A DNA stretch of 32,000 nt from Microcystis aeruginosa NIES-2549 (GCF_000981785.2 NZ_CP011304.1:3810001-3842000); one strand, 5' to 3'; counted from the stretch's first letter, positions 1,481 to 23,130 are shown. The notes: generated by a model not told the origin, from the sequence alone. A program made the numbers and translations.

Positions 1481-2908
1481 TTAGAGAGTTCTCCCGAAAA
1501 CGCAGACTACCCGAAAACCGTAATTGTTGATGCGGTTGACGCGGCGGAAGTAGTAGTCGTAGCGAATCGCGGAACGGCAGTAAGTAGGATTGTAGCCCCA
1601 GGAACCGCCCCGCAGAGGAGAACGATTATTATTACCATTTTCTATCCAGACACTGCCATCCGTCGGCGCACCGTCATAGTTATCGTGCCAAGTATCGGCG
1701 CACCACTCCCGGACATTGCCGTGCATATCGTACAGTCCAAAGGCGTTTGGGGGAAATTGTCCCACGGGAGTTGTTTGTTGTCGATATTCTCCGTTCGGTT
1801 CATCGGCGTAGGTATTACTGGCATTGTAGTTAGCCAATTCCCCCGTAATGGTTTCCCCAAAGTAAAACGGGGTGGTGGTTCCAGCACGACAGGCGTACTC
1901 CCATTCCGCCTCACTGGGAAGTCGGTATTCCCCTCCCGTTAGTTTAGATAATCTCGCGCAGAACTCGACGGCATCGTACCAGTTGACTTGTTCCACGGGT
2001 CTATCCCAGTGCGTGGGCGATCCCCCCCTAGCCCCCCCTTCAAAAGGGGGGGAATCGGAAGCCCCCCTTTTTAAGGGGGGTTTGGGGGGATCTTTAAAAT
2101 AGGCTGGGTTGAAATCAAGGTCTTGTTTAACTTTTAAATCCGTGCGAGAGGCGATCGCTTTCCACTGGGCCTGGGTGATGGGGTATTTACCCATAAAGAA
2201 GGGTGGGACAGTTACTTCATGTTGTGGTCTTTCCCTTCTAAATCCTTCCCAATTAAATTTTTTAACCAGTCTTTCGATTTCCTCATCTTCTGTTCCCATC
2301 AGGAAAGTTCCCCCCGGAATGGCGACCATTTCTAAGGTGATGCCTTTGCCCAGATCTTCCCTGAAATATTGGGACTGTTTCGACTCTTTTCTAATTTGCT
2401 CACCCTTCGCATTTACTCCCACCACCTCAAAGTTAAATACTGATAACAGTTGTTTTGGCTCTTCCGGTTCAAGCTTGAACTGATAGCCAATTGCTCTTTC
2501 TAGTTGCTCAAATCCGTCTTCTTCCCAATAATCAAGCCAGTGAATATCTCGCAGATTCAAGCTAACTTCTGCAAGTCGCAGATCAGGAATTTCGCATTCT
2601 TCTAACCTCATGGGAATAACAAAAATTGTCCCCGGTAGCATCTGTGCCAAGGTATCAAGTGCAATCCTCAACTCCCGTTGGATGTATCCCTGTTTATTAG
2701 CCGATTTCGCTGACAGACAGGCGAGAAAAATCTGACTAGCTTTAATCGCTTTCGGAATTTCATCTCGCCAAATTTGCCCCGGAATCAGGTCTTTTTTATC
2801 CAACCAAGGTTTATATCCCGCTTGCTTAAGGCGCTCATGCAGTGCCAAAACTGCTGGTTTGTCCTCACTGGCATGGGCCAAGAAAATTTGGATCTCTGAC
2901 TTTTTCAT
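1481..2908 (-). CDS. TIR domain / formylglycine-generating-enzyme-like (SUMF1/FGE-sulfatase) domain fusion protein
   Basis: 475-aa ORF with ATG start. The N-terminal ~140 aa is TIR-like (IFLAHASEDKPAVLALHERLKQAGYKPWLDKKDLIPGQIWRDEIPKAIKASQIFLACLS). The C-terminal ~290 aa has FGE-domain hallmarks (MVAIPGGTFLMG, RPQHEVTVPPFFMGKYPITQAQW, PVEQVNWYDAVEFCARLS, YRLPSEAEWEYACRAG, PNAFGLYDMHGNVREW, RGGSW, GFRVV). Confidence 0.85.
   Translation of the reverse strand: MKKSEIQIFLAHASEDKPAVLALHERLKQAGYKPWLDKKDLIPGQIWRDEIPKAIKASQIFLACLSAKSANKQGYIQRELRIALDTLAQMLPGTIFVIPMRLEECEIPDLRLAEVSLNLRDIHWLDYWEEDGFEQLERAIGYQFKLEPEEPKQLLSVFNFEVVGVNAKGEQIRKESKQSQYFREDLGKGITLEMVAIPGGTFLMGTEDEEIERLVKKFNWEGFRRERPQHEVTVPPFFMGKYPITQAQWKAIASRTDLKVKQDLDFNPAYFKDPPKPPLKRGASDSPPFEGGARGGSPTHWDRPVEQVNWYDAVEFCARLSKLTGGEYRLPSEAEWEYACRAGTTTPFYFGETITGELANYNASNTYADEPNGEYRQQTTPVGQFPPNAFGLYDMHGNVREWCADTWHDNYDGAPTDGSVWIENGNNNRSPLRGGSWGYNPTYCRSAIRYDYYFRRVNRINNYGFRVVCVFGRTL
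2019..2092. repeat. nested palindromic G/C-run mini-element (MITE/SDR-like) inside the FGE-domain coding region
   Basis: GATCCCCCCC ... [C7-TTCAAAA-G7] ... [C6-TTTTTAA-G6] ... GGGGGGATC. Outer inverted repeat at 2019-2028 / 2084-2092; two internal hairpins at 2032-2052 and 2062-2080. It translates in frame as PPKPPLKRGASDSPPFEGGARGGS. Confidence 0.8.
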
Positions 2909-3227: not shown

Positions 3228-3905
3228 CTACAGTGTAAGTTCGGAAGAACCATTATTTTTAGCTAGTTGACTAACAACCCATGCTCTTAAATTCTTTTCT
3301 GCCCTCACTTCATCCTCTTTAGCAGTGGCTAAAAATTCATAGAGTTTAGTTTTCGGAACTAGGGGAAAAGTAGGACTAAATTCTTCTTCCTGATAAACTC
3401 CCTTTTCTAACCGATAAATGCGCCAGATTTCTCCATTAAAACGCCATAATTCCGGCACTCCCAAACGGGCATAAAGTGCTAATTTATTAATATCCGTGTG
3501 GGTAATATCCACTTCCACCACTAAATCTGGGGGCGGATCTTCAGTTAAATTAATTGTTTTTCCTAGCACTTTGGCTTGATTTTGAATATAGTAAGCATTG
3601 TCGGGTTCTGCCCCTCGTTCTAAATCTTCCCTAGCTAGAGTTGTGGAACCCATACTTTTAATTTTTAAACCCAATTCTACCACCAAAATCCGAATAAATA
3701 ATCCGATTAATTCTCGATAAAACTCGTGTTCTTCTAGGGGCATAGTAATTTCTAAAGTGCCACGATCATAAAATAAATGGGCGCGATTATTTTCCCCTAG
3801 GGCTTGTAAAATTTGCCGATAGGATAACCAACTGAGATGATTAAAAACTACCCGTTTTTCGCCCCTAATTTGCTCAGTATTTAACTCCAGAGGAACTGTC
3901 ACCAT
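3228..3905 (-). CDS. Uma2 family (DUF820) PD-(D/E)XK endonuclease-like protein, tandem copy 1
   Basis: 225-aa ORF with typical Uma2 layout (LSWLSYRQIL, RAHLFYDRGTLEITMP, EPDNAYYI, PPDLVVEVDITHTD, LYARLGVPELWRF). GAGG sits 5 nt before the ATG. Confidence 0.85.
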   Translation of the reverse strand: MVTVPLELNTEQIRGEKRVVFNHLSWLSYRQILQALGENNRAHLFYDRGTLEITMPLEEHEFYRELIGLFIRILVVELGLKIKSMGSTTLAREDLERGAEPDNAYYIQNQAKVLGKTINLTEDPPPDLVVEVDITHTDINKLALYARLGVPELWRFNGEIWRIYRLEKGVYQEEEFSPTFPLVPKTKLYEFLATAKEDEVRAEKNLRAWVVSQLAKNNGSSELTL

Positions 3906-3912
3906 AATTACC

Positions 3913-4566
3913 TCAACTTTCAGCTAGTTGACTAACAACCCATGCTCTTAAATTCTTTTCTGCCCTCACTTCATCCTCTTTAGCAGTGGCTAAAAATTCA
4001 TAGAGTTTAGTTTTCGGAACTAGGGGAAAAGTAGGACTAAATTCTTCTTCCTGATAACCTTCCTTTTCTAACCGATAAATGCGCCAGATTTCTCCATTAA
4101 AACGCCATAATTCCGGCACTCCCAAACGGGCATAAAGTGCTAATTTATTAATATCCGTGTGGGTAATATCCACTTCCACCACTAAATCTGGGGGCGGATC
4201 TTCAGTTAAATTAATTGTTTTTCCTAGCACTTTGGCTTGATTTTGAATATAGTAAGCATTATCGGGTTCTGCCCCCCGTTCTAAATCTTCCCTAGCTAGA
4301 GTTGTGGAACCCATACTTTTAATTTTTAAACCCAATTCGGACACCAAAAAATAGATAAAACGTCCAATTAATTCTCGATAAAACTCGTGTTCTTCTAGGG
4401 GCATAGTAATTTCTAAAGTGCCACGATCATAAAATAAATGGGCGCGATTATTTTCCCCTAGGGCCTGTAAAATTTGCCGATAGGATAACCAACTGAGATG
4501 ATTAAAAACTACCCGTTTTTCGCCCCTAATTTGCTCAGTATTTAACTCCAGAGGAACTGTCACCAT
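3913..4566 (-). CDS. Uma2 family (DUF820) PD-(D/E)XK endonuclease-like protein, tandem copy 2
   Basis: 217-aa ORF near-identical to 3228-3905, offset by 661 bp. Differs in a 28-nt patch and in the C-terminal tail. Confidence 0.85.
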   Translation of the reverse strand: MVTVPLELNTEQIRGEKRVVFNHLSWLSYRQILQALGENNRAHLFYDRGTLEITMPLEEHEFYRELIGRFIYFLVSELGLKIKSMGSTTLAREDLERGAEPDNAYYIQNQAKVLGKTINLTEDPPPDLVVEVDITHTDINKLALYARLGVPELWRFNGEIWRIYRLEKEGYQEEEFSPTFPLVPKTKLYEFLATAKEDEVRAEKNLRAWVVSQLAES

Positions 4567-7819: not shown

Positions 7820-8665
7820 ATGAAAATTAATATTTTTCCCATCAGTCTGTTTTCTGGCATAAGTATAATTACACTGTGGGCTTTTCCCTCCCTTGCCGCT
7901 AGTTTATCCGTTGCCGAGCTATTTGTTAAGATAGAAAATTTTAACCGACCATCCCTAGGAGCTATTTCTAGGGGAAATAATCAAATAATTAATATTGCTG
8001 AGGATGGAATTAGTCAGACTATTTTGACAGGTTCCGCATTTTTCCAGTCAGATGCGCTGGAATCATTAGGACAAATTGAATTTACTAATCAAACTCTGGG
8101 TTTTGGGAGTAATTTTGTTGGTAGGGCTGATATTCAAGCTTCTCTAGGGAGTCTATTTTTTGTGCCAGCTAATCAAGCTTTAAGCTTCGATTTTAGCCTG
8201 TTCAGACAGCTATCTAATAGCCAAAGTGAATCGCAGTTAAATACAGTTAGTAGTGCCAGCAGATTTAACTTTTTTCTTGAGGAACAATCTCTCATAAACT
8301 CGGATAATAGTTCTGAAATTTTGCCTCGACAACTAGATATGTTAAACCAGATTAATAGCGGTTTATCGGCAAGTATTCCTGAGAATTATTCTAGGTTTTT
8401 GATCGGGAACAACATCACGATTAATAGTTATATGGAAAATATTATCTCTACGGATCAGCAGCAATTAGTGACCACATTATTAACGGGTTCTTTTCAGTGG
8501 ACAGCAATAAGAGATACTATGATTTTTTTGAGTGTCTCGGCTCAATCTTGCACCTATAGTTCTGATCAACCGCGCACTTGTGTGATTATCGCTGAACCCC
8601 GTTACCATGGCATAATTTTCTTCCTTATCATCCCTATTTTCCTCTTATTCCGAACGATAAAGTAA
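7820..8665 (+). CDS. secreted S/N/Q-rich hypothetical protein with PEP-CTERM-like C-terminal anchor
   Basis: 281-aa ORF. N-terminal signal peptide (MKINIFPISLFSGISIITLWAFPSLAAS). C-terminus IAEPRYHGIIFFLIIPIFLLFRTIK: an (A)EP motif, a hydrophobic helix and a basic tail. Confidence 0.6.
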   Translation: MKINIFPISLFSGISIITLWAFPSLAASLSVAELFVKIENFNRPSLGAISRGNNQIINIAEDGISQTILTGSAFFQSDALESLGQIEFTNQTLGFGSNFVGRADIQASLGSLFFVPANQALSFDFSLFRQLSNSQSESQLNTVSSASRFNFFLEEQSLINSDNSSEILPRQLDMLNQINSGLSASIPENYSRFLIGNNITINSYMENIISTDQQQLVTTLLTGSFQWTAIRDTMIFLSVSAQSCTYSSDQPRTCVIIAEPRYHGIIFFLIIPIFLLFRTIK

Positions 8666-9427
8666 ATAATTTAACTCATTGGTCAACCATTCAGAAAACA
8701 ATTTTTGTAAAATTTCCTGATGGATTTCCTCGGTTAATTCCGCAGGTAAAAATTCCAGCACCATTAGTAAATGATATTCTTCGTTAATTTTCACTGGTTG
8801 TATAATTTCTTTTGGTCGAGCTTGAAAAACGATACTGGAAAGACCAGAAGAGGATAACTGACCACGATAGATTATTCCTTCATAGCCACAATGTAAGCGA
8901 CGTTGTTCGTCTATATCGTAAAGATGGGCAGCTTGATAAAAGCTAATTTCTTCTTCTTCAATTTGATAAAAAACTTCCCAAGCTAATTTTTCGTAGGGAA
9001 TAACCAGACGATAAAGAATCGCTCGCTCAAAGTCCAGACGATTCTCGGCAAAATGTCGTTCTACCTCCCGGGAAAAAAGAGCCGTCGATAGTTTTTTTGT
9101 TAGTAAATCCCCTTGAATTCCCGCTTCCCAATCTTCGGGAGCGATCATCTGATCTGCTAACCAGGCCAAGGTATCACTGGCTTTTTCTAATCGTTTTTCC
9201 CGTCTTTGCTCGTCAGCGAGCGCTTGAATTTCTGCGGGTGTAACGCTAATATTATGCTCTTGGGCTGATTTCTTGATGATTCTTTGGTGCAGGATTTTTT
9301 GACAAATTTCCTTAAGCTGTAGCTGCTGTTTAAGAAACTTTTCTATGTCTATTAACTCGATCTTAATTCCATGAAAGTCAGGCATATTTAAAGATAGAAT
9401 CCGTTTAATTGTATGATCATAAATCAA
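8645..9427 (-). CDS. PpiC/SurA-like (parvulin-related) protein, putative peptide-maturation/chaperone component
   Basis: 260-aa ORF. SurA-N-like helical part (ITVTPAEIQALADEQRREKRL..., WLADQMIAPEDWEAGI) then a parvulin-like part (ILYRLVIPYEKLAWEVFYQIEEEEISFYQAAHLYD...GYEGIIYRGQL...EYHLLMVLEF). It is the last gene of the peptide locus. Confidence 0.55.
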   Translation of the reverse strand: MIYDHTIKRILSLNMPDFHGIKIELIDIEKFLKQQLQLKEICQKILHQRIIKKSAQEHNISVTPAEIQALADEQRREKRLEKASDTLAWLADQMIAPEDWEAGIQGDLLTKKLSTALFSREVERHFAENRLDFERAILYRLVIPYEKLAWEVFYQIEEEEISFYQAAHLYDIDEQRRLHCGYEGIIYRGQLSSSGLSSIVFQARPKEIIQPVKINEEYHLLMVLEFLPAELTEEIHQEILQKLFSEWLTNELNYLLYRSE

Positions 9428-9478
9428 CTAAATTGACATACTAATTTATATTTATTTATGACCAGATACTTAGCAGCT

Positions 9479-9509
9479 AAAACTCTATCAACTAATTTGA
9501 TAGAGTTTT
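9479..9509. terminator. hairpin between last precursor gene and PpiC-like gene
   Basis: AAAACTCTATCA-ACTAATT-TGATAGAGTTTT: a 12-bp perfect stem with A/T-rich flanks, ~100 nt downstream of the stop at 9608. Confidence 0.5.
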
Positions 9510-9607
9510 AGTCACTCAAGGAAAATCTGAGGAATAATTTTTGTGAACTACCCTAGCTTATACTCAGAAATAATTAAGAGTCTAGGTGTAATTTTGAGTA
9601 GTTATCC

Positions 9608-9820
9608 TCAACTATTGGTAGTAATAGGCTGACCAATGGCAATACCAAAAGCCGTAATGAATCCCTGAGAAAAACTACCAATACGATTGTGACTGAAATC
9701 AAAGACAAATAAAGGTTGAAAACTTAGATCATTTAAAACCCATCCCTGCCCCTGAATACTCCCAAGATAAAGGGATTCAGTTTGGCAAAATTCCAAATCC
9801 CGAATTTTGATTTGACTCAT
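9608..9820 (-). CDS. leader-bearing small peptide precursor, paralog 5 of 5
   Basis: 70 aa. AAGGAG SD 7 nt before the ATG. N-terminus MSQIKIRDLEFCQTESLYLGS shares the I.DLE..E leader with its neighbours. Core is Gly/Ser/Phe-rich with no Cys. Confidence 0.7.
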   Translation of the reverse strand: MSQIKIRDLEFCQTESLYLGSIQGQGWVLNDLSFQPLFVFDFSHNRIGSFSQGFITAFGIAIGQPITTNS

Positions 9821-9840
9821 TATTATTCTCCTTGATTATT

Positions 9841-10086
9841 TTAGACAGGACTCATCGCATAGACATAACCAGCCTGAATAACATTCAGATAGGCGTAGTC
9901 ACTAGCTATTACACTTCCTGAAAATACCATTGATAAAGTACTGGGAGTTGAAGAAGCCTTAACTACTCCACTCAAATTAATCCAAGGGTTATGAACAATA
10001 AATCCCTGACCTCCAACAGGTGAACAGTTAGGAATTTTTTGATTTTGAGCCATTAATTCTAGATGCTCTAAATCGGTAATGATCAT
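9841..10086 (-). CDS. leader-bearing small peptide precursor, paralog 4 of 5
   Basis: 81 aa. MIITDLEHLELMAQNQKIPNCSPVGG then QGFIVHNPW.... GAGGA SD. 45 nt downstream of paralog 3. Confidence 0.7.
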   Translation of the reverse strand: MIITDLEHLELMAQNQKIPNCSPVGGQGFIVHNPWINLSGVVKASSTPSTLSMVFSGSVIASDYAYLNVIQAGYVYAMSPV

Positions 10087-10131
10087 AGTTTGTTCCTCGC
10101 AGTTTTGAACTTAATTAAGCCGGAATAGCTC

Positions 10132-10368
10132 CTATCCTATAGCCACCGCTTGATAAATAAAGGAGAAACCTGTAGTATAACCCTGGGGGGTAGCCGTAGT
10201 TAAAACTTGAGTTTCTCCACCGGCAATGCTGCCAAGGGAACCAACAACTAATGAATTAAATTTGAAATTAGCAATTGAAAAAGAGGGGATAACTACTATA
10301 CCTGAAGCTCCCTTTACTTCATAGGCTTGTTCGGTCATTTCCAAGTGTTCTAGATCGTTAATCAACAT
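10132..10368 (-). CDS. leader-bearing small peptide precursor, paralog 3 of 5
   Basis: 78 aa. MLINDLEHLEMTEQAYEVKGA then SGIVVIPSFS.... AAGGAGAAAAATT-ATG. Confidence 0.75.
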   Translation of the reverse strand: MLINDLEHLEMTEQAYEVKGASGIVVIPSFSIANFKFNSLVVGSLGSIAGGETQVLTTATPQGYTTGFSFIYQAVAIG

Positions 10369-10432
10369 AATTTTTCTCCTTGTTTAATGTTGTAACTGTT
10401 CCACAATAATAACGATTAATTATTAGTAGCGG

Positions 10433-10447
10433 TTGCCATTGTGGCAA
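10433..10447. promoter_or_regulatory. TTGCCA-N3-TGGCAA palindrome (candidate operator / -35 overlap), copy 1
   Basis: TTGCCATTGTGGCAA is a perfect inverted repeat, 65-79 nt upstream of the ATG at 10368. On the minus strand TTGCCA is followed after ~16 nt by TAATAA (a possible -10). Confidence 0.45.
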
Positions 10448-10748
10448 TTATTTTTTATATCGAGAATGATTGCTATTTTTATTTAGATCAACCTCTAATC
10501 CGTACAGAGGGAGTATTTATTACAGCTTTTATCATAAAGATAAAGTACAAAAGAATTTGGCCTTATCTCTGAGCAACTGGCTACTGTTAAATGTTCCGCA
10601 GTTCCAGCGTTCCCAAAAACTAGAGACTTCGTACCTTACCATTGGGATAAATGCTGTAATATACTCCTCTAATAAAAAAATCCTAACGAGTCTTGCTAAC
10701 CCGTCGTGAAATCAATCCTATGGTCGATATGTCAGGGATTCTAGTTAG

Positions 10749-11018
10749 CTACCCCCCCGGAGTAGTTGCCACGGCCGAAATTGAACTTGTGCTAAGGGCA
10801 AAACCAGGACCGGCCTCAACGGAGTTAGAAACATCGATACTCGCCGTTAGGGAACCGATAGCCGAAGAATTAATCCGACTTTGTACAAGACTGAAAATTA
10901 TGTCGTTAATTGACATATAGGCAACCTGATCTAAGTCGAAATCATCAAAATTTTGACCCCCGACAATTCCCTGCTTTCCGGTAGTCAGTTCAGAGAATTC
11001 TAAATTAATAATTACCAT
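10749..11018 (-). CDS. leader-bearing small peptide precursor, paralog 2 of 5
   Basis: 89 aa. MVIINLEFSELTTGKQGIVGG then QNFDDFDLD.... GGAG SD 10 nt upstream. Confidence 0.65.
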   Translation of the reverse strand: MVIINLEFSELTTGKQGIVGGQNFDDFDLDQVAYMSINDIIFSLVQSRINSSAIGSLTASIDVSNSVEAGPGFALSTSSISAVATTPGG

Positions 11019-11131
11019 TACTTTTCTGCTCCAAAGTAAACACGGATCAATAGTTATAAGCTACTGTTAAATAACCTCGATAATAATTCAGTAGCTTTCT
11101 GGATTTAACTGGTTCACAAGACATGGAAAAT

Positions 11132-11165
11132 AGGCTAGGTAGAAATTTGATTATCTACCTAGCCT
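11132..11165 (-). terminator. 12-bp-stem hairpin after precursor paralog 1
   Basis: AGGCTAGGTAGA-N10-TCTACCTAGCCT. On the minus strand it is followed by ATTTTCC. It lies 67 nt past the stop at 11232. Confidence 0.55.
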
Positions 11166-11231
11166 TAATGATCAAGTCAAAATTATCTTTTAGATTTGAT
11201 AACTTTGCGCAAGGCTAAACACAAGATTCGG

Positions 11232-11444
11232 TTAAACTAAACCTCTTGCCCGGGTGACGCTAGTGTATTCAATGGATTTAGAACCAGTTTCTGCGCTGAG
11301 ATCCAGAGTTTCTCGGCTAAAACCCCGAGCCAAAGCTTCACCAGAAATATCTAGACTTTTGCGGGAATAGAAAAAAGCACCGTTGCCTCCTTCGATATTT
11401 TTTTCAGAAACATTTTCGAGGTAGCTGATGTCGGAAATTAACAT
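11232..11444 (-). CDS. leader-bearing small peptide precursor, paralog 1 of 5
   Basis: 70 aa. MLISDISYLENVSEKNIEGG then NGAFFYSRKS.... AAGGAGAAAAACC-ATG. Confidence 0.75.
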   Translation of the reverse strand: MLISDISYLENVSEKNIEGGNGAFFYSRKSLDISGEALARGFSRETLDLSAETGSKSIEYTSVTRARGLV

Positions 11445-11731: not shown

Positions 11732-12070
11732 TTAAAACCAAGGAAGTTCCCGAAAACCGCCCTTGAGATTAGCCACTTCTGACTCAATTACTTTTACATG
11801 ATTCAAATCTCGGATGGCGAGGGAATTTATTTCCTCGGTTTTTGACGGCCCTTTGCGGGCGTTATCTTTAATCAATCGGTTATAGGTTCGATAGGGTATG
11901 TAATGGAGGGGATTGTAACCAGCGAAACGCAAAATTAACAGACAGGCCCAAGAATACTTGCCATTAAGAATCGCATCGACAATTTGGTCAAACTGTTCTT
12001 CTGTCATTGCTTTATCTCGTTTATTATTGGAATTACTGGGTAATTGAATCATTTTCCTCGTTTCTCCCAT
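11732..12070 (-). CDS. HetP-family protein with a C-terminal double-glycine-leader-like tail
   Basis: 112-aa ORF. EEQFDQIVDAILNGKYSWACLLILRFAGYNPLHYIPYRTYNRLIKDN matches the conserved HetP core as I remember it. GAGG SD favours the second ATG at 12052 (MIQLPS...). C-terminus is AIRDLNHVKVIESEVANLKGG-FRELPWF. Confidence 0.75.
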   Translation of the reverse strand: MGETRKMIQLPSNSNNKRDKAMTEEQFDQIVDAILNGKYSWACLLILRFAGYNPLHYIPYRTYNRLIKDNARKGPSKTEEINSLAIRDLNHVKVIESEVANLKGGFRELPWF

Positions 12071-12082
12071 TAAAAGTTGATA

Positions 12083-13744
12083 TTAAAGTGTCAGCCCATC
12101 CTGTTGTAGCTTTTTGAGCGGTTCTAATAAGACATCGATGATGCGACGACGACGGATAATAATCTCCGCCGTCCCGGTTTGTCCGGGTTTGAACGCCAGC
12201 GCTCCCTGACCGGGACGAGGGGAATCGCGATCGAGCAGAATCTCCACTTGATAGATCTCGCCTAAATCTTGATCGGTTCTGGTAGCGGTGGAAATCTTGC
12301 CAACTTTACCCCCAATCACGCCGTAATCTTGGTAAGGAAAAGCATCGATTTTCACCTGGGCCGTTAGTCCTGATTTGATAAATCCCGCTTCCCGATTGGG
12401 CAACTCGGCTAAGAGTACCAAAGGAACTCCTTCGGGGGCTACCTCGGCCAAGGTTTGACCGGCTTGCACCACCTCCCCTGATTTTTTCAGGTTGAGAGTC
12501 AAGATCACGCCATCGACTGGTGCTGTTAGATATTTTTGACGGAGTTGCTCCTGGGCTTTGGCCAAGAGGGTCTTATTTTCTCGTATACGAGCATCGATCT
12601 GGGCTATTTCTAGCTCGAGCGACGCTTTTTGTTTATTGGTCTCCAACTGCACCGCTTGCGCTTCTGCTCGCTTGCGACGCAATTCTGCCTGTAGTTGGGC
12701 GACTTCTTGGTAAGTTTTGGCTAATTCCCCTTGATTTTGGGTGATACGACTCTCTAGGTCGAGTAGGGATTGGGAGGCTTGGAAAATCTGCTCTTCGGCG
12801 TTATTGATTTCCTGTAATTGACTGATAGTAATCTTCTGTTCTGTCTCCCGCAGGTTTTGTTCGGCTTGAAAGAGCATCTCCAGGGAAATCGCCCCGTCGG
12901 CGGCTAAGGGTTTTAAACGAGCCACCCGCTCCTGATGGGCTTTCTTCTCCTCCTCTAGTTGGGCCGAGCGCCGGCTGGCTTCCCCGGAAAGGGGGTTTAG
13001 TTGCTGACGACGACTGCGATAGGCACTAGCTTGGGTTTTCTGTTCCCGCAATAATTGACGGATAGTGTCTAGTTTGCTTTCGGCAAGAGCGATCGCTGAT
13101 AATTGGGCTTTTTCCTCGGCTTCTGCGATCGCTTTTTGGGTGTCCTCCTGCAAATTTAGCCGCTCCCACAGGCCTCGTTTCTGAGTCTGTTCGATGTAGT
13201 TAGCGTTCAGGCTTTGTTGTAGGCGTTCTACTTCTTTTTGGGCAATTGTGGTGTCAATCTCGGCGATAATTTGTCCTTTTTTTACTTTATCCCCTTCTTT
13301 GACCTCTACACGGCTGATTTGACCCAATTCGAGGGGTTGAATTTTATAGGTTTCTCCCTGGGGAATTAATTTTCCCGTCGCCTTGCCCACTTCTTCGATC
13401 TGTCCGAACCATGCCCAGGTTCCGAAAATGACACAGAATCCCATTCCTGCCATCAATAGGCGTGTGGGTAGGGTGGCGGGGGGCTGATCGAGTAGGGTTT
13501 GTACGGGAGTTGACCAGGTGGTGGCGGAATGACCCGGAATCGGGGCGGCTACGGTGCTGAGAGGGGCGACTGCCCCACCACAAATCTGCTCCGCTTTTGC
13601 GGGAGAAATGGTGATTTCCCTCTCTTTGTCAGTTTCTTGTCCGACTTGGTTCGATTCAGGTAAATTGTTCATGGTATCTGCTGATAAGAGTGAGAGAGAC
13701 CCAGCAAAAACGGTCGCTGGCAAGTTGCTCTTAACTTTTGCCAA
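12083..13744 (-). CDS. HlyD-family membrane fusion / periplasmic adaptor protein
   Basis: 553-aa ORF (TTG at 13744; alternative ATG at 13672). One TM helix (LLMAGMGFCVIFGTWAWFG), a lipoyl-like motif (VKEGDKVKKGQIIAEID), a long coiled coil, and a beta-barrel tail (GLTAQVKIDAFPYQDYG). Confidence 0.9.
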   Translation of the reverse strand: MAKVKSNLPATVFAGSLSLLSADTMNNLPESNQVGQETDKEREITISPAKAEQICGGAVAPLSTVAAPIPGHSATTWSTPVQTLLDQPPATLPTRLLMAGMGFCVIFGTWAWFGQIEEVGKATGKLIPQGETYKIQPLELGQISRVEVKEGDKVKKGQIIAEIDTTIAQKEVERLQQSLNANYIEQTQKRGLWERLNLQEDTQKAIAEAEEKAQLSAIALAESKLDTIRQLLREQKTQASAYRSRRQQLNPLSGEASRRSAQLEEEKKAHQERVARLKPLAADGAISLEMLFQAEQNLRETEQKITISQLQEINNAEEQIFQASQSLLDLESRITQNQGELAKTYQEVAQLQAELRRKRAEAQAVQLETNKQKASLELEIAQIDARIRENKTLLAKAQEQLRQKYLTAPVDGVILTLNLKKSGEVVQAGQTLAEVAPEGVPLVLLAELPNREAGFIKSGLTAQVKIDAFPYQDYGVIGGKVGKISTATRTDQDLGEIYQVEILLDRDSPRPGQGALAFKPGQTGTAEIIIRRRRIIDVLLEPLKKLQQDGLTL

Positions 13745-14090
13745 GATAATTAATCTAGGGGAAAAAGAAACAATCTGGTGTTTCTTTAGGGATGTCTGTT
13801 GATCAAATCGCTTTCTTTTTACTGATCGAAGAATTTTAAGCGAACAATAAACAAGAACCAGTTAAGAATTATTTTTTGATCTATCTTGAAATCTCTAGCT
13901 TTCCCGATCCCCCATTTATGTATACTGGATGTAGTAAATGATAGATGGATATGGTGATTCTATCTTGGCTATTAAGTTATGCTCCACAAATAGATTATGT
14001 TCATGTTACCAGTTTTGTCAAGTATCAAAATAGTTAGTTATACACGAGTTAAATCTTAGCTATATTGTGGCTTATTCTAGAGAATTGCAG

Positions 14091-14105
14091 TTGCCAGAAT
14101 GGCAA
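14091..14105. promoter_or_regulatory. TTGCCA-N3-TGGCAA palindrome, copy 3
   Basis: TTGCCAGAATGGCAA is a perfect inverted repeat in the 895-bp spacer, ~350 nt upstream of the hlyD start. Confidence 0.4.
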
Positions 14106-14639
14106 TATAACTGTTAATTTTTCTGAAGCTTCACTTGGCAATAAAATGCAAAATTTCGATAATATCGGTGTTTTTAGACGAAAATTTTCGATTTTAACCT
14201 TAAAAATTGACCATAATCAAATAGTTTTATTTGAAAGAATGAGCAAATTCAGCTATATTTTCGTGGCTTGCCGAAAGTCTAACATCTGTCTCTAGGTCGA
14301 TATTTTTATCTATCAAATCATCGATGAAGAACAAATCAAAATATGTATACTCTGGCATTTACTGGTGGTGAAAAATACCGCTCAAGGGATTAAAAATATA
14401 TAAAATAGCCTCCCTTGGTTTAGTCTGGTTAAATGTAACCTAGAAAAACTTTTCTGTCATAACTGCACAGAAAAATTAAGAATACACCAGAGAGGTCCAA
14501 AGAACAGAGAGAGGAAGAGAAATTCGATGAGTAATACTGAATCCTTTCGAAAAGAACTATAAAAATGGAGAGTGGGGAGATGAGGGAGATAGGGCGTTAA
14601 GTTGGCATAGGATAGTACGATCTGGGCAGAAGGTGGTCG

Positions 14640-17600
14640 CTATAAATCCAATTGTTGGTGGGCGAGGTAATAGTACAACCCTTTTAAAGCCATTAAATCT
14701 TCATGGGTTCCCCGTTCCACCAAAAGACCTCGATCGAGAACCAGAATAGAATCGGCGTTGCGGACGGTAGAAAGACGATGGGCAATGATCAGGGTAGTGC
14801 GATCACGGGATAGACGAGCCAGATTGTCTTGAAAACGACGTTCCGATTCGGTATCGAGGGAACTGGTCGCCTCATCGAGGAGTAAAATTTTCGGATTACC
14901 TAACAGGGCCCTAGCGATGGCGATTCTTTGTCTCTGGCCGCCCGATAAATTCATCCCCCTTTCCCCCACCTTTGTATTGTAGCCGAGGGGGAGATTTTGA
15001 ATAAAAGCGTGAGCTTCGGCCAGTTTAGCCGCCTCTATCACCTCCTCTAAACTATATTCATGGCGATAAAGCCTGATATTGTCTAGAATCGTTCCCGAAA
15101 ACAGAAAACACTCCTGGGGAACAACTCCCATCTGGGCCCGCAAAGAAGTGGGCGAAACCTGAGTCAGATCATGTCCATCGATCCGAATAGTACCGCTATC
15201 GGGGTGATAGAGACTCTCTACCAGCTTGAATAGGGTACTTTTGCCCGAACCGCTGCGGCCGACCACCGCCACCGTCTCGCCTGGATTCACCGAGAAAGAA
15301 ATATTTTCCAAAACATTGCTCTCATCGCTGCTGTGGTAGCGGAAACTGACGGAATCGAAACAGATTTCACCGCGTAACCCCGGCAAAGTCAGCAGCGGGC
15401 GATCGCTAGTTTCTTCGGGGGTAGCGGAAAAAACATCGTCGAGACGTTCGATCGAGATTGTCACTTCCTGTAATTCATCCCAAAGATTGACCAGGCCCAA
15501 CACCGGACTGAGTACTTTACCGATCAACATATTAAAAGCGACGAACTGGCCGATGGTCAGTTGATTTTCAATCACCAGAGTGGCCCCGTACCAGAGTAAA
15601 GCGGTACTGCCAAGGGAGTGGATCGTGCCGCTGGCCGCCTGTAGATTAATTCCTAACTTTTGCCCCCGAAAACGGGCATTTAAAAAACCCGTCAGGTGTT
15701 CCTCCCAACGCCAGCGCAGTTCTCCCTCAGCGCCGAGGGATTTGACCGTGGCGATCCCGGATATGGTCTCGACGAGGGAAGAATTTTGTTGGGCTGCCTC
15801 GTTAAAGACCTCCCGGGATACCTGACGCAGGAAAGGGGTAGCAAATATAGTCAGCAAAGCGATGGGTGGGATTAAAGCGATAACCAGTAGGGTTAACTGC
15901 CAATTGTAGAAAAACATTAAACCCAGATAGACGAATCCCATCAAAAAATCTAGCCAAGCTAGGATGACCTGACTGACTAAAAAACGCTGGATTTTTTCAT
16001 TTTCGTTGACCCGGGTGATGATATCGCCCACATGACGGGATTCAAAGAATTTTAGGGGTAATTTGAGGGCGTGGCCGATAAAACCGCTAATCATTGTCAA
16101 GTCGAGACGGTTGGAGAGATAACTCAACCAATACTGGCGAATTGCCACCAGTCCCACACTCCAGAGTCCAAAAAGTAACACCCCGAGGGCAAAGACGTTA
16201 AGGGTGGAAAGGCTTCGATTGACCACCACTTTATCAAGGATAATCTGGGTAAATAGGGGCGTGATCAGGCCAAATAATTGAATTAACAAGGAAATCAGAA
16301 TTATCTGTAAGCCTAGGCCCCGGTAGGGGGACAAAAGCTGGAAAAAACGCTTAAAAGAGGGTTTATCGGTGGCGATTGTTCCTAAAATTGCCGTCGGTTC
16401 TAGCAAGAGAGCGTAACCCGTCCATCCCTGTAAAAATTGCTGACGGGAATAATAACGCTTACCTTGGGCGGGATCGGCCACTAATAGGCGATCGCCGCTG
16501 ACTGGATAGACGACAACAAAATGATCCCCCTGCCAGTGCGCTATCCAGGGATTTTTCTGTTCAAGAAGACGATTTAAACTGGCACGCACCGGTCGAGACT
16601 GATAACCGAGGGTTTCCGCCGTTTTTGCCAAATTTTTCAGGGATACGCCCGATCGCCCCACTCCCGCCAATTCCCTCAAGCTATTCAAACTCAAGCGTTT
16701 TCCCCAGTAAAGGCTAATCATTGCCAGACAGGTGGCCCCGCAATCGGCGGCACTTTGTTGTTCTAGCCAAGGATATTTCTGCCCGAAACGGAACCGCCGT
16801 TTTAAGGGTTTGGGAAAATCAACGGGCTGATTTTGGCTGGTAGGAGGACGCAGGGGGATAACATTGGACTTAGGGGCGGGATTAACTAGAATTTCAGCCC
16901 TTTTTTCCCGATTAATATCTTTTTTTTCAGCGGTTTCGGCAGGCAGATAGTATAAAACTACGTCGGTCGCCGTCACCCTGGCCGGAGGCGAGGAGGTGGT
17001 ATTATCCCAACTGTCACCGATGCTCATCCCCTCGATCTGTCCTTGCCGCAACCAATAGCGTCCTTTGGGAAGATGATCGAGAGTTTCCTGGGCCTGGAGC
17101 GATTTTTCCTGTAAATAGGGCAGAAAACTGCTAATTTTTGCACTAGATTCTGATTGGCAATCCGTTAGGGTTTTGAAAAAAATTAAGGTTTGGGTGTGTT
17201 TTATTTTCGAGTGCCACGCTTGTTGTAATTCGGGCAACGATTCTAAGAATTGCAGCAGCATCGGACGGGAAAGACGGGCTACAGTTACCTGACTGGCGGC
17301 AATCGGCGAGTAGAGAAGACTATCTTTAATAAATAGCGAATCTGCTCCGAAAACATCCCCTACTGTCAAGATTCCCCCAGATAGCCAACGTTTGTTACCT
17401 TGACCCAGTAATCGAACCCTTCCCTGACAGATCAAGTAAAAATCCTCGTTATTTTCCCTCCCCCCTCTCGCTTCGGGATCGCTATTGATACTATCTCCCA
17501 ATGAGAAATTAATCACTTGAAAAGACTCGCTCAAGGATTCTAGCAATTCGTTTTTATCTGGGGCAATTTTAGCCTGTTGTTGCAGTAAAGCTTTGATTTG

Positions 17601-17660
17601 AGAAGACTTTAAGGAAGTATCTTCCTTCTCGTTCCCCTGGGTCGTTAAGGGTTTTTTCAT
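14640..17660 (-). CDS. HetC-like ABC exporter: cNMP-binding-like N-terminus + C39 peptidase + ABC TMD + ATPase
   Basis: 1006-aa ORF. Cyclic-nucleotide-binding-like region (FYLICQGRVRLLGQG...GDVFGADSLF). C39 triad context (QQSAADCGATCL, GDHFVVVY, VADPA). Six-helix TMD. Walker A GRSGSGKST, signature LSGGQRQR, Walker B ILLLDEATS. Confidence 0.92.
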   Translation of the reverse strand: MKKPLTTQGNEKEDTSLKSSQIKALLQQQAKIAPDKNELLESLSESFQVINFSLGDSINSDPEARGGRENNEDFYLICQGRVRLLGQGNKRWLSGGILTVGDVFGADSLFIKDSLLYSPIAASQVTVARLSRPMLLQFLESLPELQQAWHSKIKHTQTLIFFKTLTDCQSESSAKISSFLPYLQEKSLQAQETLDHLPKGRYWLRQGQIEGMSIGDSWDNTTSSPPARVTATDVVLYYLPAETAEKKDINREKRAEILVNPAPKSNVIPLRPPTSQNQPVDFPKPLKRRFRFGQKYPWLEQQSAADCGATCLAMISLYWGKRLSLNSLRELAGVGRSGVSLKNLAKTAETLGYQSRPVRASLNRLLEQKNPWIAHWQGDHFVVVYPVSGDRLLVADPAQGKRYYSRQQFLQGWTGYALLLEPTAILGTIATDKPSFKRFFQLLSPYRGLGLQIILISLLIQLFGLITPLFTQIILDKVVVNRSLSTLNVFALGVLLFGLWSVGLVAIRQYWLSYLSNRLDLTMISGFIGHALKLPLKFFESRHVGDIITRVNENEKIQRFLVSQVILAWLDFLMGFVYLGLMFFYNWQLTLLVIALIPPIALLTIFATPFLRQVSREVFNEAAQQNSSLVETISGIATVKSLGAEGELRWRWEEHLTGFLNARFRGQKLGINLQAASGTIHSLGSTALLWYGATLVIENQLTIGQFVAFNMLIGKVLSPVLGLVNLWDELQEVTISIERLDDVFSATPEETSDRPLLTLPGLRGEICFDSVSFRYHSSDESNVLENISFSVNPGETVAVVGRSGSGKSTLFKLVESLYHPDSGTIRIDGHDLTQVSPTSLRAQMGVVPQECFLFSGTILDNIRLYRHEYSLEEVIEAAKLAEAHAFIQNLPLGYNTKVGERGMNLSGGQRQRIAIARALLGNPKILLLDEATSSLDTESERRFQDNLARLSRDRTTLIIAHRLSTVRNADSILVLDRGLLVERGTHEDLMALKGLYYYLAHQQLDL

Positions 17661-22185: not shown

Positions 22186-22196
22186 AGGAGATGATA

Positions 22197-22652: not shown

Positions 22653-22663
22653 AGGAGATGATA

Positions 22664-23119: not shown

Positions 23120-23130
23120 AGGAGATGATA

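What the first reader, a model, noticed from the sequence alone, without database searches (positions are those of the whole stretch)
9608..11444. Five paralogous peptides: conserved N-terminal leader, unrelated Cys-free beta-prone cores
The five N-termini align:
- MLISDISYLENVSEKNIEGG
- MVIINLEFSELTTGKQGIVGG
- MLINDLEHLEMTEQAYEVKGA
- MIITDLEHLELMAQNQKIPNCSPVGG
- MSQIKIRDLEFCQTESLYLGS

After the GG/GA/GS site the cores (about 45-68 aa) have no obvious similarity to each other. The cores lack Cys and are rich in G/S/T/A/N/Q/V/I/F, with alternating polar and hydrophobic stretches (e.g. FSIANFKFNSLVVGSLGSIAG; YAYLNVIQAGYVYAM).

Three of the five genes have identical strong SD contexts (AAGGAGAA), which supports real translation.

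The lack of Cys argues against lanthipeptide- or cyanobactin-type chemistry. A hypervariable core behind a conserved leader is the signature of diversifying secreted peptides: bacteriocins, signals, or beta-rich amyloid-like surface peptides. Which of these applies cannot be decided from sequence.
Basis: seen in the sequence. Interest (0 to 1): 0.65.

Follow-up and report, generated by a model that had tools for sequence, protein, structure and literature searches.

The report
Exported leader-peptide gene array in Microcystis
Five small genes in a Microcystis aeruginosa chromosome encode peptides with a shared N-terminal export tag, almost certainly cut and secreted by the peptidase-transporter next door; this kind of cyanobacterial cluster is already known, but what these particular peptides do has not been studied.

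Summary
Five minus-strand ORFs (70, 89, 78, 81 and 70 aa) share an M-[ILV]-I-x-[DN]-L-E-[HFY]-x-E leader, and their Cys-free cores show no detectable similarity to each other.

The window is Microcystis aeruginosa. The genes sit in one co-oriented cluster: a cNMP-binding/C39-peptidase ABC exporter (HetC-like), HlyD, a HetP-family protein, the five peptides, then a PpiC-like protein. This matches the long-transporter (group I/II) cyanobacterial "bacteriocin" cluster of Wang et al. 2011. The leader is their KIxDLxYLEx10GG motif, and the HetP-family protein carries it internally as well.

All five genes are intact and in the same order in at least 10 Microcystis contigs and 4 diverged relatives. 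Whole-gene dN/dS is 0.12-0.7 in the diverged comparisons. The cores are conserved among orthologues, so they are not hypervariable. The variable zone is the junction around the cleavage site.

The G-G/A/S site is conserved in P1-P3.

Function is inferred, not shown. I favour self-assembling surface or matrix peptides like EbfG1-4 over bacteriocins. This is a new member of a known kind, of moderate interest.

The parts
11232..11444 (-). P1 precursor, 70 aa. Leader MLISDISYLENVSEKNIEGG, then a 50-aa charged, hydrophilic core.
   Evidence: ORF. SD AAGGAGAA. Best match to the independent leader HMM, E 1.7e-9. Orthologues in L059 and L060 have EGS in place of EGG; the core is the least conserved of the five, whole-gene dN/dS about 0.4-0.5.
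10749..11018 (-). P2 precursor, 89 aa. Divergent leader MVIINLEFSELTTGKQGIVGG, then a 68-aa acidic core.
   Evidence: ORF. Orthologues keep M[VI]IINLEF, a G-[GS] site and the C-terminal core ...INSSA.G.L.A..D.S.SV.AG.GF..S.SSIS.VATTPG. Core C-terminal dN 0.16-0.21. Followed by a terminator-like hairpin that is conserved in relatives.
10132..10368 (-). P3 precursor, 78 aa. Leader MLINDLEHLEMTEQAYEVKGA, then a 57-aa uncharged beta-prone core. Member of a small conserved core family.
   Evidence: ORF and SD. Ten 90% clusters. Eight real 50% representative clusters in 1.84 billion proteins, sharing F.F[DN]SL..G..G.F.GG...LTTA.P...GF.F.YQ..A.G. Core C-terminal dN 0.09-0.15 against dS 1.2-2.3 in the three diverged comparisons. 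AF2 model is all-beta, pLDDT 63.5.
9841..10086 (-). P4 precursor, 81 aa. Leader MIITDLEHLELMAQNQKIPNCSPVGGQ (probable end), then a core of about 54 aa.
   Evidence: ORF. In 10 family members G26-Q27-G28 is invariant while G25 varies G/E/K. The conserved pattern is therefore hydrophobic(-4)-x-G(-2)-Q(-1)|G. The C-terminal core (YAYLNV.Q.G..YA.SPV) is conserved.
9608..9820 (-). P5 precursor, 70 aa. Variant leader MSQIKIRDLEFCQTE... with an invariant Cys; the core ends in ...AFGIAIGQ...
   Evidence: ORF and SD. Seen on 23 or more contigs. 'LGS' is not conserved in orthologues; in four of the five aligned sequences I-x-G-Q-[GR] is kept. The same MSQ/MTQ..[KI]I.[DN][LI].FC leader subtype occurs in L001, L002 and L005.
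11732..12052 (-). HetP-family protein (106 aa as annotated). It carries the same leader motif internally: AIRDLNHVKVIESEVANLKGG, followed by a 7-aa tail FRELPWF.
   Evidence: NCBIfam HetP_family E 5e-36 and PF28069. Motif found. 31 of 35 HetP-family proteins encoded next to HlyD in related loci (window copy included) carry the motif plus a short tail, often rich in aromatic residues. The motif was described by Wang et al. 2011.
12083..13744 (-). HlyD-family membrane-fusion (periplasmic adaptor) protein.
   Evidence: TIGR01843 type_I_hlyD 244 bits, above its cut-off; Pfam HlyD_3.
14640..17660 (-). 1006-aa peptidase-containing ABC transporter (PCAT), long or HetC-like type: cNMP-binding domain, C39 peptidase, ABC transmembrane region, ATPase.
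   Evidence: Pfam cNMP_binding, Peptidase_C39, ABC_membrane and ABC_tran. Aligns full-length with PCAT1, ComA and HlyB. Catalytic Gln/Cys/His/Asp align with those of PCAT1.
8645..9385 (-). PpiC/SurA-like rotamase-domain protein (246 aa as annotated). No signal peptide is evident. Last gene of the co-oriented cluster.
   Evidence: Pfam Rotamase 23.9 bits (cut-off 21.7). Weak match to TIGR04500 'putative peptide maturation system protein', 60.8 bits, below its 180-bit cut-off. Syntenic in all relatives, dN/dS about 0.15 in the diverged comparisons.
10685..10705 (-). Terminator-like hairpin plus T-run just after P2.
   Evidence: The hairpin sequence is conserved in L058 and L060.
10419..10447 (-). 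Promoter-like site (TTGCCA-17-AATAAT) ahead of P3-P4-P5. Its -35 element lies in a conserved palindrome, TTGCCATTGTGGCAA (10433-10447).
   Evidence: Best promoter-like match in the region, 10 of 12. The palindrome is nearly invariant in the window and three diverged loci.

Best explanation
**What it is.** The five ORFs are real genes for double-glycine-type precursor peptides. They are substrates of the export machine encoded just upstream on the same strand. That machine is a HetC-like ABC transporter with a cNMP-binding domain and a catalytically intact C39 cysteine peptidase, plus a HlyD adaptor. An outer-membrane channel encoded outside the window is presumed.

**Proposed mechanism.**
- The leader of about 20-27 residues (consensus M-I-I-S-D-L-N/E-Y/H-L-E-x7-hydrophobic-x-G-G/A/S) docks on the cytoplasmic C39 domain.
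- The peptide is cut after the conserved Gly(-2)-x(-1). That is GG, GG and GA in P1-P3, and most likely G-Q in P4 and P5.
- The unmodified, Cys-free 5-7 kDa core is pumped out.
- The cNMP-binding domain probably gates export. The cytoplasmic PpiC-like protein may hold or isomerise the aggregation-prone precursors.
- The HetP-family protein carries the same recognition motif, so it probably binds, or is cut by, the same peptidase.

**Shown versus inferred.**
- Shown: gene reality, conservation, cluster architecture, intact catalytic residues, the shared motif.
- Inferred: cleavage, export, and the function of the mature peptides.

**Function (inference, about 0.35-0.4 on its own).** Outside the cell the mature peptides act as self-assembling cell-surface or matrix components, analogous to EbfG1-4 of Synechococcus elongatus. 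P3 and P4 especially are uncharged and beta-prone. I consider toxins less likely.
For: **Genes are real**
- Intact and in the same order in 10 Microcystis contigs and 4 diverged relatives.
- Whole-gene dN/dS is 0.12-0.7 where divergence is substantial. C-terminal core dN is 0.09-0.31 for P2-P5.
- Three of the five have a strong SD.

**Substrate-machine link**
- All genes are co-oriented, in the order PCAT, HlyD, HetP, P1-P5, PpiC.
- The C39 Gln/Cys/His/Asp residues align with those of PCAT1.
- 65 small ORFs with this leader and a G-[GAS] site lie in 26 related cyanobacterial loci, nearly all just downstream of the HlyD/HetP genes. None were found in the 10 non-cyanobacterial loci.
- Gly(-2) and a hydrophobic residue at -4 are conserved. 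This agrees with the C39 recognition rules measured for LahT150 (PMC6363468).
- The architecture and motif are as described by Wang et al. 2011.

**Peptides are unmodified**
- No modification enzyme in the cluster, and no Cys in the cores.

**Matrix or surface role**
- EbfG1-4 are cyanobacterial GG-motif proteins secreted by a C39 transporter. They are needed for biofilm, and EbfG1-3 form amyloid.
- No conserved immunity-like ORF is called between HetP and PpiC in any of the syntenic loci.
- The locus sits in conserved housekeeping context and varies little between strains.
- An approximate aggregation scan gives hot-spot fractions of 0.70 (P3) and 0.85 (P4), against 0.23-0.36 for 13 soluble window proteins.
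- The AF2 model of P3 is all-beta with long strands.
Against: - There is no direct evidence here for expression, cleavage or export.
- The leader departs from the classical L(-12)xxxE(-8)L(-7) register.
- P4 and P5 would need cleavage after G-Q, which is not a documented C39 site. One P5 orthologue (L059) has no G-[GAS] at all.
- P2's leader is not picked up by the independent HMM.
- Structure models are of low to moderate confidence (pLDDT 41 and 63.5) and have no PDB neighbour.
- The aggregation scale was recalled from memory. Hydrophobic Gly-rich peptides are equally typical of membrane-active class II microcins.
- EbfG1-4 use a short-type transporter and show no reported sequence homology. 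The EbfG hot-spot motif A-[FI]-N-I-[GS] is absent from these cores.
- P1 is hydrophilic and not aggregation-prone.
Confidence: 0.7

Rival explanations
1. The peptides are unmodified class II microcin-like bacteriocins. They are cut and exported by the peptidase transporter and HlyD, then kill competing cyanobacteria or bacteria by acting on their membranes.
For: - A GG leader with a C39 ABC transporter and HlyD is the canonical class II microcin export set. Such cyanobacterial clusters are conventionally called bacteriocin clusters.
- The P3-P5 cores are small, Gly-rich and hydrophobic, and contain GxxxG-like spacings.
- Core repertoires differ widely between genera, as expected for weapons.
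Against: - No immunity-like gene is called in or beside the array in any syntenic locus.
- The locus lies in conserved chromosomal context and the cores are nearly identical across Microcystis strains, under purifying selection. This is unlike strain-variable toxin loci.
- No predicted transmembrane-strength segment; the maximum 19-residue hydropathy is 1.55.
Confidence: 0.2
2. The peptides, or the short tail released from the HetP-family protein, are signals. The HetC-like transporter exports them under cyclic-nucleotide control, and they coordinate population behaviour such as quorum- or differentiation-like responses.
For: - The transporter has a cNMP-binding regulatory domain and is of the HetC type, which in Nostoc is needed for heterocyst differentiation. 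HetC's substrate is unknown (PMC10986499).
- A HetP-family regulator carrying the same leader motif is part of the cluster.
- An OmpR-type response regulator lies a few kb upstream.
Against: - The mature peptides are long (45-68 aa), hydrophobic, and of five unrelated types. That is unlike known peptide pheromones.
- No receptor kinase gene is in the cluster.
- Microcystis does not form heterocysts.
Confidence: 0.07
3. The peptides are RiPP precursors whose cores are modified by enzymes encoded elsewhere in the genome before export.
For: - The leader-core architecture fits.
- A PpiC-related protein weakly resembles a 'putative peptide maturation system protein' family (TIGR04500, 60.8 bits).
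Against: - No modification enzyme is present in the 32-kb window.
- The cores lack Cys.
- There is no NHLP or Nif11 leader match.
- The TIGR04500 match is far below its 180-bit cut-off.
Confidence: 0.03

Closest known systems
Cyanobacterial long-transporter (group I/II) 'bacteriocin' gene clusters and their HetP-type motif KIxDLxYLEx10GG (Wang, Fewer & Sivonen 2011, PMC3140520; earlier Dirix et al. 2004)
   Same: - Long ABC transporter with a cNMP-binding (CAP_ED) domain and C39 peptidase, HlyD, a rotamase (SurA-like) protein, a HetP-like protein, and arrays of small GG-motif ORFs.
- The leader consensus derived here is that motif.
   Different: - That survey lists only one Microcystis precursor (MAE_35960, group II). 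None of these five appear in it.
- The motif was reported there for HetP proteins. Here it also heads free-standing small peptides, both in the window and in 26 related loci.
- No M16 peptidase or other group II modification gene is present in the window.
EbfG1-4 / PteB of Synechococcus elongatus PCC 7942 (PMC4997328, PMC9981879)
   Same: - Several co-transcribed small GG-motif proteins. The mature parts are about 5-7 kDa and are not homologous to one another.
- They are secreted through a C39 peptidase transporter with cleavage after GG or GA.
- They act extracellularly as surface or matrix proteins, and three of them form amyloid.
   Different: - The EbfG cluster is Wang's group III, which uses a short-type transporter without a cNMP-binding domain.
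- No HetP-like gene is reported there.
- The EbfG hot-spot motif A-[FI]-N-I-[GS] is absent from these cores.
- Parnasa et al. report no homologues of mature EbfG in other cyanobacteria.
HetC-HetP of Nostoc/Anabaena PCC 7120 (PMC10986499, PMC4133259)
   Same: - The transporter has the same domain order: cNMP-binding, C39 with catalytic Cys/His, then ABC.
- A HetP-family gene lies nearby.
- Anabaena HetP (alr2818) also carries KIKDLAYLE....
   Different: - No HlyD gene and no GG-leader peptide gene have been reported beside hetC.
- Here the HlyD and five leader peptides are present, and the organism is unicellular and forms no heterocysts.
Class II microcins (e.g. colicin V with CvaA/CvaB) and Gram-positive class II bacteriocins/ComC with ComA/PCAT1
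   Same: - Double-glycine leader.
- Cleavage by a C39 domain concomitant with ABC export.
- An HlyD-type adaptor in Gram-negative bacteria.
   Different: - No immunity gene.
- The leader register differs from L(-12)xxxE(-8)L(-7)xxI(-4)xGG.
- The transporter has an extra cNMP-binding domain.
- Antibacterial activity is untested.

Membership tests
Double-glycine-leader substrates of C39 peptidase ABC transporters (PCAT/AMS) | N-terminal leader of about 15-30 aa ending in Gly(-2)-Gly/Ala/Ser(-1) | tested here: inconclusive
   - Met and conserved in orthologues for P1 (GG/GS), P2 (GG/GS) and P3 (GA/GG).
- P4: GG is present in Microcystis, but the first Gly is E or K in relatives, while G-Q-G is invariant.
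- P5: GS is not conserved.
Double-glycine-leader substrates of C39 peptidase ABC transporters (PCAT/AMS) | Conserved hydrophobic residues at -4, -7 and -12 on a helical leader | tested here: inconclusive
   - Position -4 is I, V or L in 38 of 38 related leaders.
- Positions -7 and -12 are not hydrophobic. Conserved hydrophobic residues sit instead at -13, -16 and -19/-20.
- This is a variant register. Helicity was not established; the two AF2 models disagree on the leader.
Double-glycine-leader substrates of C39 peptidase ABC transporters (PCAT/AMS) | Encoded next to a C39-domain ABC transporter with catalytic Cys/His/Asp, plus (in diderm bacteria) an HlyD adaptor | tested here: met
   - Pfam Peptidase_C39 E 5.6e-38.
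- Gln, Cys, His and Asp align with the corresponding PCAT1 residues.
- HlyD TIGR01843 scores above its cut-off.
Double-glycine-leader substrates of C39 peptidase ABC transporters (PCAT/AMS) | Leader removed and core exported in vivo | not testable with these tools
   Needs mass spectrometry of secreted peptides or an in vitro C39 assay.
Cyanobacterial group I/II 'bacteriocin' cluster sensu Wang et al. 2011 | Long-type transporter (CAP_ED + C39 + ABC), HlyD and a rotamase (SurA-like) gene | tested here: met
   cNMP_binding, Peptidase_C39, ABC_membrane, ABC_tran, HlyD_3, and Rotamase at 23.9 bits (cut-off 21.7). Defining features taken.
Cyanobacterial group I/II 'bacteriocin' cluster sensu Wang et al. 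2011 | HetP-like protein with KIxDLxYLEx10GG | tested here: met
   HetP_family E 5e-36. The window protein carries AIRDLNHVKVIESEVANLKGG.
Cyanobacterial group I/II 'bacteriocin' cluster sensu Wang et al. 2011 | Extra modification genes (e.g. M16 peptidase) that separate group II from group I | tested here: not met
   None found among the window proteins scanned. By organisation the cluster is group I-like, but with an unusually rich precursor array: group I averages 0.35 precursors per cluster.
EbfG-type biofilm/amyloid GG-motif proteins | Sequence homology of mature parts, or the shared hot-spot motif A-[FI]-N-I-[GS] | tested here: not met
   The motif is absent from all five cores.
EbfG-type biofilm/amyloid GG-motif proteins | Amyloid or fibre formation and a requirement for biofilm | not testable with these tools
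   Only indirect indications are available: an approximate aggregation scan and an all-beta AF2 model of moderate confidence.
Class II microcins | Dedicated immunity gene beside the structural gene | tested here: not met
   No additional gene is called between HetP and PpiC in the 14 related loci examined, 7 of which cover that whole stretch. The ORFs in the P2-P3 gap lie within a spacer that holds a window-lineage insertion absent from diverged relatives.
Lanthipeptide / cyanobactin / NHLP / Nif11 RiPP precursors | Cys/Ser/Thr-rich core with a cognate modifying enzyme, or a match to an NHLP/N11P leader model | tested here: not met
   No Cys in the cores. No Pfam or NCBIfam hit even at E<=1-10. 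No LanM, PatA/G or YcaO-type gene in the window.
Cyanobacterial tubular (CT) pilin MrpC family (PMC12397347) | Sec signal peptide, mature pilin of about 12 kDa, O-GlcNAc transferase gene cluster | tested here: not met
   The five peptides have GG-type leaders rather than Sec signals. The gene cluster described in the paper is different.

The most novel reading that the evidence does not exclude
The cluster is a single functional module in which the HetP-family protein is itself a client of the HetC-like peptidase transporter. Its HetP domain would act as an oversized 'leader', and cutting after its internal GG would release the conserved 7-residue tail FRELPWF, or free the HetP domain. That would couple a developmental-type regulator to secretion. 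The five unrelated peptides would co-assemble outside the cell into a heteromeric beta-rich fibre or coat that helps Microcystis cells stick together in colonies. If so, this non-heterocystous organism would point to the long-sought substrate class of HetC and to a new protein component of bloom colonies.
Probability: 0.15. Interest if true: 0.75.

Novelty: new member of a known kind. Interest (0 to 1): 0.36.

Why it matters
- **Ecology.** Microcystis is the main freshwater bloom-former, and the proteins that hold its colonies together are poorly known. This is a conserved, core-genome-like operon of five secreted beta-prone peptides. It comes with a dedicated, cyclic-nucleotide-gated exporter and is a concrete, testable candidate for such a role, or for inter-strain antagonism.
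- **HetC substrate question.** The same recognition motif heads free-standing peptides and sits inside the adjacent HetP-family protein. The HetC substrate is still described as unknown in 2024 (PMC10986499). This locus gives a simple system for asking whether HetP-type proteins are cut by HetC-type peptidases.
- **Annotation.** Neither Pfam nor NCBIfam has a model for this widespread cyanobacterial leader or for the P3 core family. These genes therefore remain 'hypothetical' or are mis-named; one P2 variant is labelled 'alkaline phosphatase'.

Tried and rejected
- **Link to the large core family of other genera.** By eye, P1 and P2 looked like divergent members of a core family found in other genera (pattern A.A.A.G..T.T.T...SSS.S). 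An HMM of 17 members scored about 0 bits on all five window cores. Rejected.
- **Conserved P3/P4/P5 trio in L005.** By eye, L005 seemed to carry the same trio. Core HMMs against 16,990 small ORFs from the 47 loci gave nothing below E 0.1; the L005 P5-like peptide scored E 0.72. Not supported.
- **Hidden homology among the five cores.** hhalign probabilities were all below 3%.
- **'CTB family bacteriocin' model.** I recalled such an NCBIfam model. There was no NCBIfam hit for the window peptides or for 10 related peptides.
- **1924-aa hit to the P3 profile (P0045).** This is a Bacteroidetes-type T9SS protein with 11 near-identical repeats. The summed weak repeat scores produced a false positive.
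- **Structure.** The AF2 model of P3 reached pLDDT 41 with 10 sequences and 63.5 with 12. Foldseek against the PDB found nothing below E 1.
- **CT pilus / MrpC of Microcystis.** Considered because it is built from long beta-hairpins. It has a Sec signal and a different gene cluster, so it is unrelated.
- **Rfam.** No family matched in the window.
- **Expression evidence.** Literature searches by NIES-843 locus tags returned nothing. Harke & Gobler 2013 mention only a C39 transporter, MAE_54550, as higher under low nitrogen. I could not show that it is this locus.
- **Own-species copy in the genome collection.** The genome-contig scan returned no Microcystis copy; the best match was 59% identical (Pannus). 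Within-genus comparison therefore relied on exact-sequence look-ups.


Full report
**1. Observation**

The five ORFs lie on the minus strand at 11232-11444 (P1, 70 aa), 10749-11018 (P2, 89 aa), 10132-10368 (P3, 78 aa), 9841-10086 (P4, 81 aa) and 9608-9820 (P5, 70 aa). P1, P3 and P5 share the ribosome-binding context CAAGGAGAA, and their start regions repeat at DNA level.

A six-frame motif scan of the whole 32 kb finds the leader pattern six times only. All six are on the minus strand between 9.6 and 11.8 kb. The sixth sits inside the C-terminus of the next gene upstream.

I also built a leader HMM from 38 peptides of other genera, with no window sequence in it. Among 692 window ORFs it picks out P1 (E 1.7e-9), P3 (5e-6), P4 (3.5e-4), that upstream protein (0.017) and P5 (0.14). 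P2 has the most divergent leader and is not detected.

The cores show no similarity to each other by BLASTP or by profile-profile comparison, where all probabilities are below 3%.

**2. Organism and context**

Exact copies of all five peptides occur in Microcystis aeruginosa records, including the 4.29-Mb chromosome CP012375.1. They are annotated as hypothetical proteins; one P2 variant is mis-named 'alkaline phosphatase'.

On the same strand, in order, lie:
- a 1006-aa ABC transporter with a cNMP-binding domain, a C39 peptidase, the ABC membrane domain and the ATPase (14640-17660);
- a HlyD-family adaptor (12083-13744);
- a HetP-family protein (11732-12052);
- P1 to P5;
- a PpiC/SurA-like rotamase protein (8645-9385).

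The C39 domain aligns with PCAT1 with the oxyanion Gln and the catalytic Cys, His and Asp all in place. The flanking genes are housekeeping genes such as ndhM, pam68, a CCB2/CCB4 cofactor-assembly gene and an OmpR-type regulator. Nothing in the window looks like a RiPP-modifying enzyme.

**3. Relation to the literature**

This is the long-transporter cluster type that Wang, Fewer and Sivonen (2011, PMC3140520) called group I/II. It consists of a CAP_ED+C39 ABC transporter, HlyD, a SurA-like rotamase, and often a HetP-like protein carrying a 'putative cleavage motif KIxDLxYLEx10GG'. Their Figure S1A shows the motif in Anabaena HetP alr2818. Their Table S3 lists a single Microcystis precursor (MAE_35960, group II) and none of these five.

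Neither Pfam nor NCBIfam has a model that hits the window peptides or ten related ones.

**4. Breadth of the leader family**

A scan for relatives of the HlyD protein returned 47 loci. The best was 59% identical, so no copy from the same species was returned. In 26 of the cyanobacterial loci I find 65 small ORFs with this leader and a G-[GAS] site. Nearly all lie on the same strand just downstream of the HlyD and HetP-like genes. The ten non-cyanobacterial loci have none.

The consensus is M-I-I-S-D-L-[NES]-[YH]-[LM]-E-x7-[IVL]-x-G-[GAS], 21 residues long. Counting the window's own copy, 31 of 35 HetP-family proteins encoded next to HlyD carry the motif near their C-terminus. It is followed by a short tail of about 6-45 aa that is often rich in aromatic residues.

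Core sequences in other genera are very diverse. BLASTP clustering gives 33 groups, including two large families and several sets of tandem paralogues. None of these match the window cores.

**5. Are the cores hypervariable?**

They are not, at the scale that can be tested.
- Within Microcystis, the 90%-identity clusters hold only a few conservative variants.
- Four diverged relatives from metagenomes (L058-L061) keep the same gene order. Their P3 is 61-75% identical and their PpiC-like protein is much better conserved (dN 0.035-0.11).
- In the ortholog alignments, the first 12 or so leader residues and the C-terminal two-thirds of each core are conserved. The stretch around the cleavage site is the variable part.
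- Nei-Gojobori estimates give whole-gene dN/dS of 0.12-0.7 where divergence is substantial. For P2-P5 the C-terminal core has dN 0.09-0.31, against 0.4-1.1 at the junction, with dS roughly 0.4-2.3. P1's core is the least constrained.
- An HMM of the P3 family was searched against 1.84 billion representative proteins. It finds eight genuine clusters, seven of which carry the same type of leader (the eighth starts within the core). They share a core with invariant Leu, Gly, Tyr and Ala positions: F.F[DN]SL..G..G.F.GG...LTTA.P...GF.F.YQ..A.G. A ninth hit is a repeat-driven artefact.

Each core is therefore a distinct, selected sequence. The diversity lies between paralogues and between genera, not among orthologues.

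**6. Cleavage sites**

Gly at -2 and a hydrophobic residue at -4 are conserved in P1 (IEGG/IEGS), P2 (IVGG, VVGG, ISGS, VLGS) and P3 (VKGA, VEGG, LTGG).

G26-Q27-G28 is invariant in all ten family members and is preceded by a hydrophobic residue. One P5 orthologue has no G-[GAS] in this region at all.

The pattern that fits all five is hydrophobic(-4)-x-G(-2)-x(-1). P4 and P5 would then have Gln at -1. A remote P3 relative has Lys at that position (VIGK). Published mutagenesis of the C39 protease LahT150 shows that -4, -7 and -12 matter, that -3 is free, and that the core side is very tolerant (PMC6363468). Here -4 fits, but the other conserved hydrophobic residues sit at -13, -16 and -19/-20. 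This is a variant register. Cleavage after G-Q is my inference and needs mass spectrometry.

**7. Properties of the mature peptides**

| Peptide | Character | Hot-spot fraction |
|---|---|---|
| P1 | Charged and hydrophilic: 7 K/R, 6 D/E | 0.20 |
| P2 | Acidic | 0.46 |
| P3 | Almost uncharged, GRAVY 0.75 | 0.70 |
| P4 | Almost uncharged, GRAVY 0.59 | 0.85 |
| P5 | Almost uncharged, GRAVY 0.30 | 0.45 |

P3-P5 are rich in beta-formers, and none has a clear transmembrane-strength segment.

The hot-spot fractions come from an approximate AGGRESCAN-type scan. The scale was recalled from memory, so the numbers are only indicative. Thirteen soluble proteins from the same window score 0.23-0.36.

AlphaFold2 on P3 gave pLDDT 41 with 10 sequences. 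With 12 more diverse sequences it gave pLDDT 63.5 and pTM 0.42, an all-beta model with strands of 14-15 residues. That model has no PDB neighbour below E 1.

**8. Transcription signals**

A terminator-like hairpin follows P2 (10685-10705) and is conserved in relatives. A promoter-like site (10419-10447) precedes the tightly packed P3-P4-P5, and its -35 element lies in a conserved palindrome. This suggests at least two transcription units.

**9. Mechanism and function**

I hold the following with good confidence. The peptides are leader-tagged substrates of the adjacent HetC-like peptidase transporter and HlyD. They are cut at the conserved Gly(-2) site during export and are not otherwise modified.

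Their extracellular role is inferred. I favour self-assembling surface or matrix components for these reasons:
- EbfG1-4 are cyanobacterial GG-motif proteins with a demonstrated function. They are secreted by a C39 transporter, are needed for biofilm, and three of them form amyloid.
- No immunity gene is present in the array.
- The locus is conserved across strains, sits in housekeeping context, and is under purifying selection.
- P3 and P4 are strongly aggregation-prone.

The bacteriocin reading remains viable at about 0.2. A signalling role is less likely. The Microcystis tubular pilus (MrpC) is a different system with a Sec signal.

**10. Novelty**

The kind of system, the leader motif and a functional precedent are all published. 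The five Microcystis peptides, the P3 core family and the probable G-Q sites are not described in what I could search. I therefore class this as a new member of a known kind.

The most interesting loose end concerns HetP. The HetP-family protein shares the peptides' recognition motif, while the HetC substrate was still called unknown in 2024.

Noticed in passing
window 11732-12052 (-): The HetP-family protein carries the peptides' leader motif internally (AIRDLNHVKVIESEVANLKGG), followed by a 7-aa tail FRELPWF. The tail is conserved in relatives as ARNFWWI and FRDIRWF. 31 of 35 HetP-family proteins next to HlyD in related loci (window copy included) have the same layout. This suggests HetP proteins bind, or are cut by, HetC-type peptidases. 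The motif itself was noted by Wang et al. 2011.
   Followed up: partly
window 7820-8665 (+): A 281-aa ORF with no Pfam or NCBIfam hit. It has an N-terminal signal-peptide-like segment and a C-terminal ...AEP-hydrophobic helix-RTIK end that resembles a PEP-CTERM/exosortase sorting signal. It converges on, and overlaps, the end of the PpiC-like gene. It is syntenic in all Microcystis-type loci. It may be a surface protein linked to the cluster.
   Followed up: no
window 10518-10661: The P2-P3 spacer holds an insertion of about 135 bp that carries a 34-nt inverted repeat (79% complementary). The insertion is absent from the three diverged relatives aligned there (L058-L060). It looks like a miniature mobile element.
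   Followed up: partly
window 10433-10447: The palindrome TTGCCATTGTGGCAA upstream of P3 is nearly invariant across the window and three diverged loci. It overlaps the -35 of the best promoter-like site and could be an operator.
   Followed up: no
window ~9478-9511: A perfect 14-bp stem-loop (ctaaaactctatca...tgatagagttttag) lies about 100 nt downstream of the P5 stop, before the PpiC-like gene. It has no T-run, so the terminator scan did not list it. Seen in the sequence.
   Followed up: no
window 13745-14639: About 900 bp with no convincing gene separates the ABC transporter from HlyD. The same gap occurs in other Microcystis contigs. Its content was not examined.
   Followed up: no
window 21730-23586 (+): Four tandem ORFs of 151-162 aa, each overlapping the next by 22 nt. 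The three that were scanned are DUF29 proteins with E about 1e-40.
   Followed up: no
window 1481-2908 (-) and 3228-4566 (-): A TIR-domain/FGE-sulfatase fusion protein lies next to two tandem Uma2-family genes. This may be a defence-type neighbourhood. In one related strain the TIR-FGE gene is split.
   Followed up: no
L001, L002, L005 and window P5: A distinct leader subtype, MSQ/MTQ-x-[KI]-I-x-[DN]-[LI]-x-F-C, recurs in distant genera. It has an invariant Cys where other leaders have Leu or Met. It is usually the last or nearly last gene of the array. In L005 and the window the core also contains FGIAIG.
   Followed up: partly
L023, L030, L002: Other genera carry tandem arrays of 3-6 near-identical leader peptides. 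Their cores share motifs such as NSIGNTA[LV]ALN[IV], or are Tyr/Ser/Asn-rich and low in complexity. These are core families with no database model.
   Followed up: no
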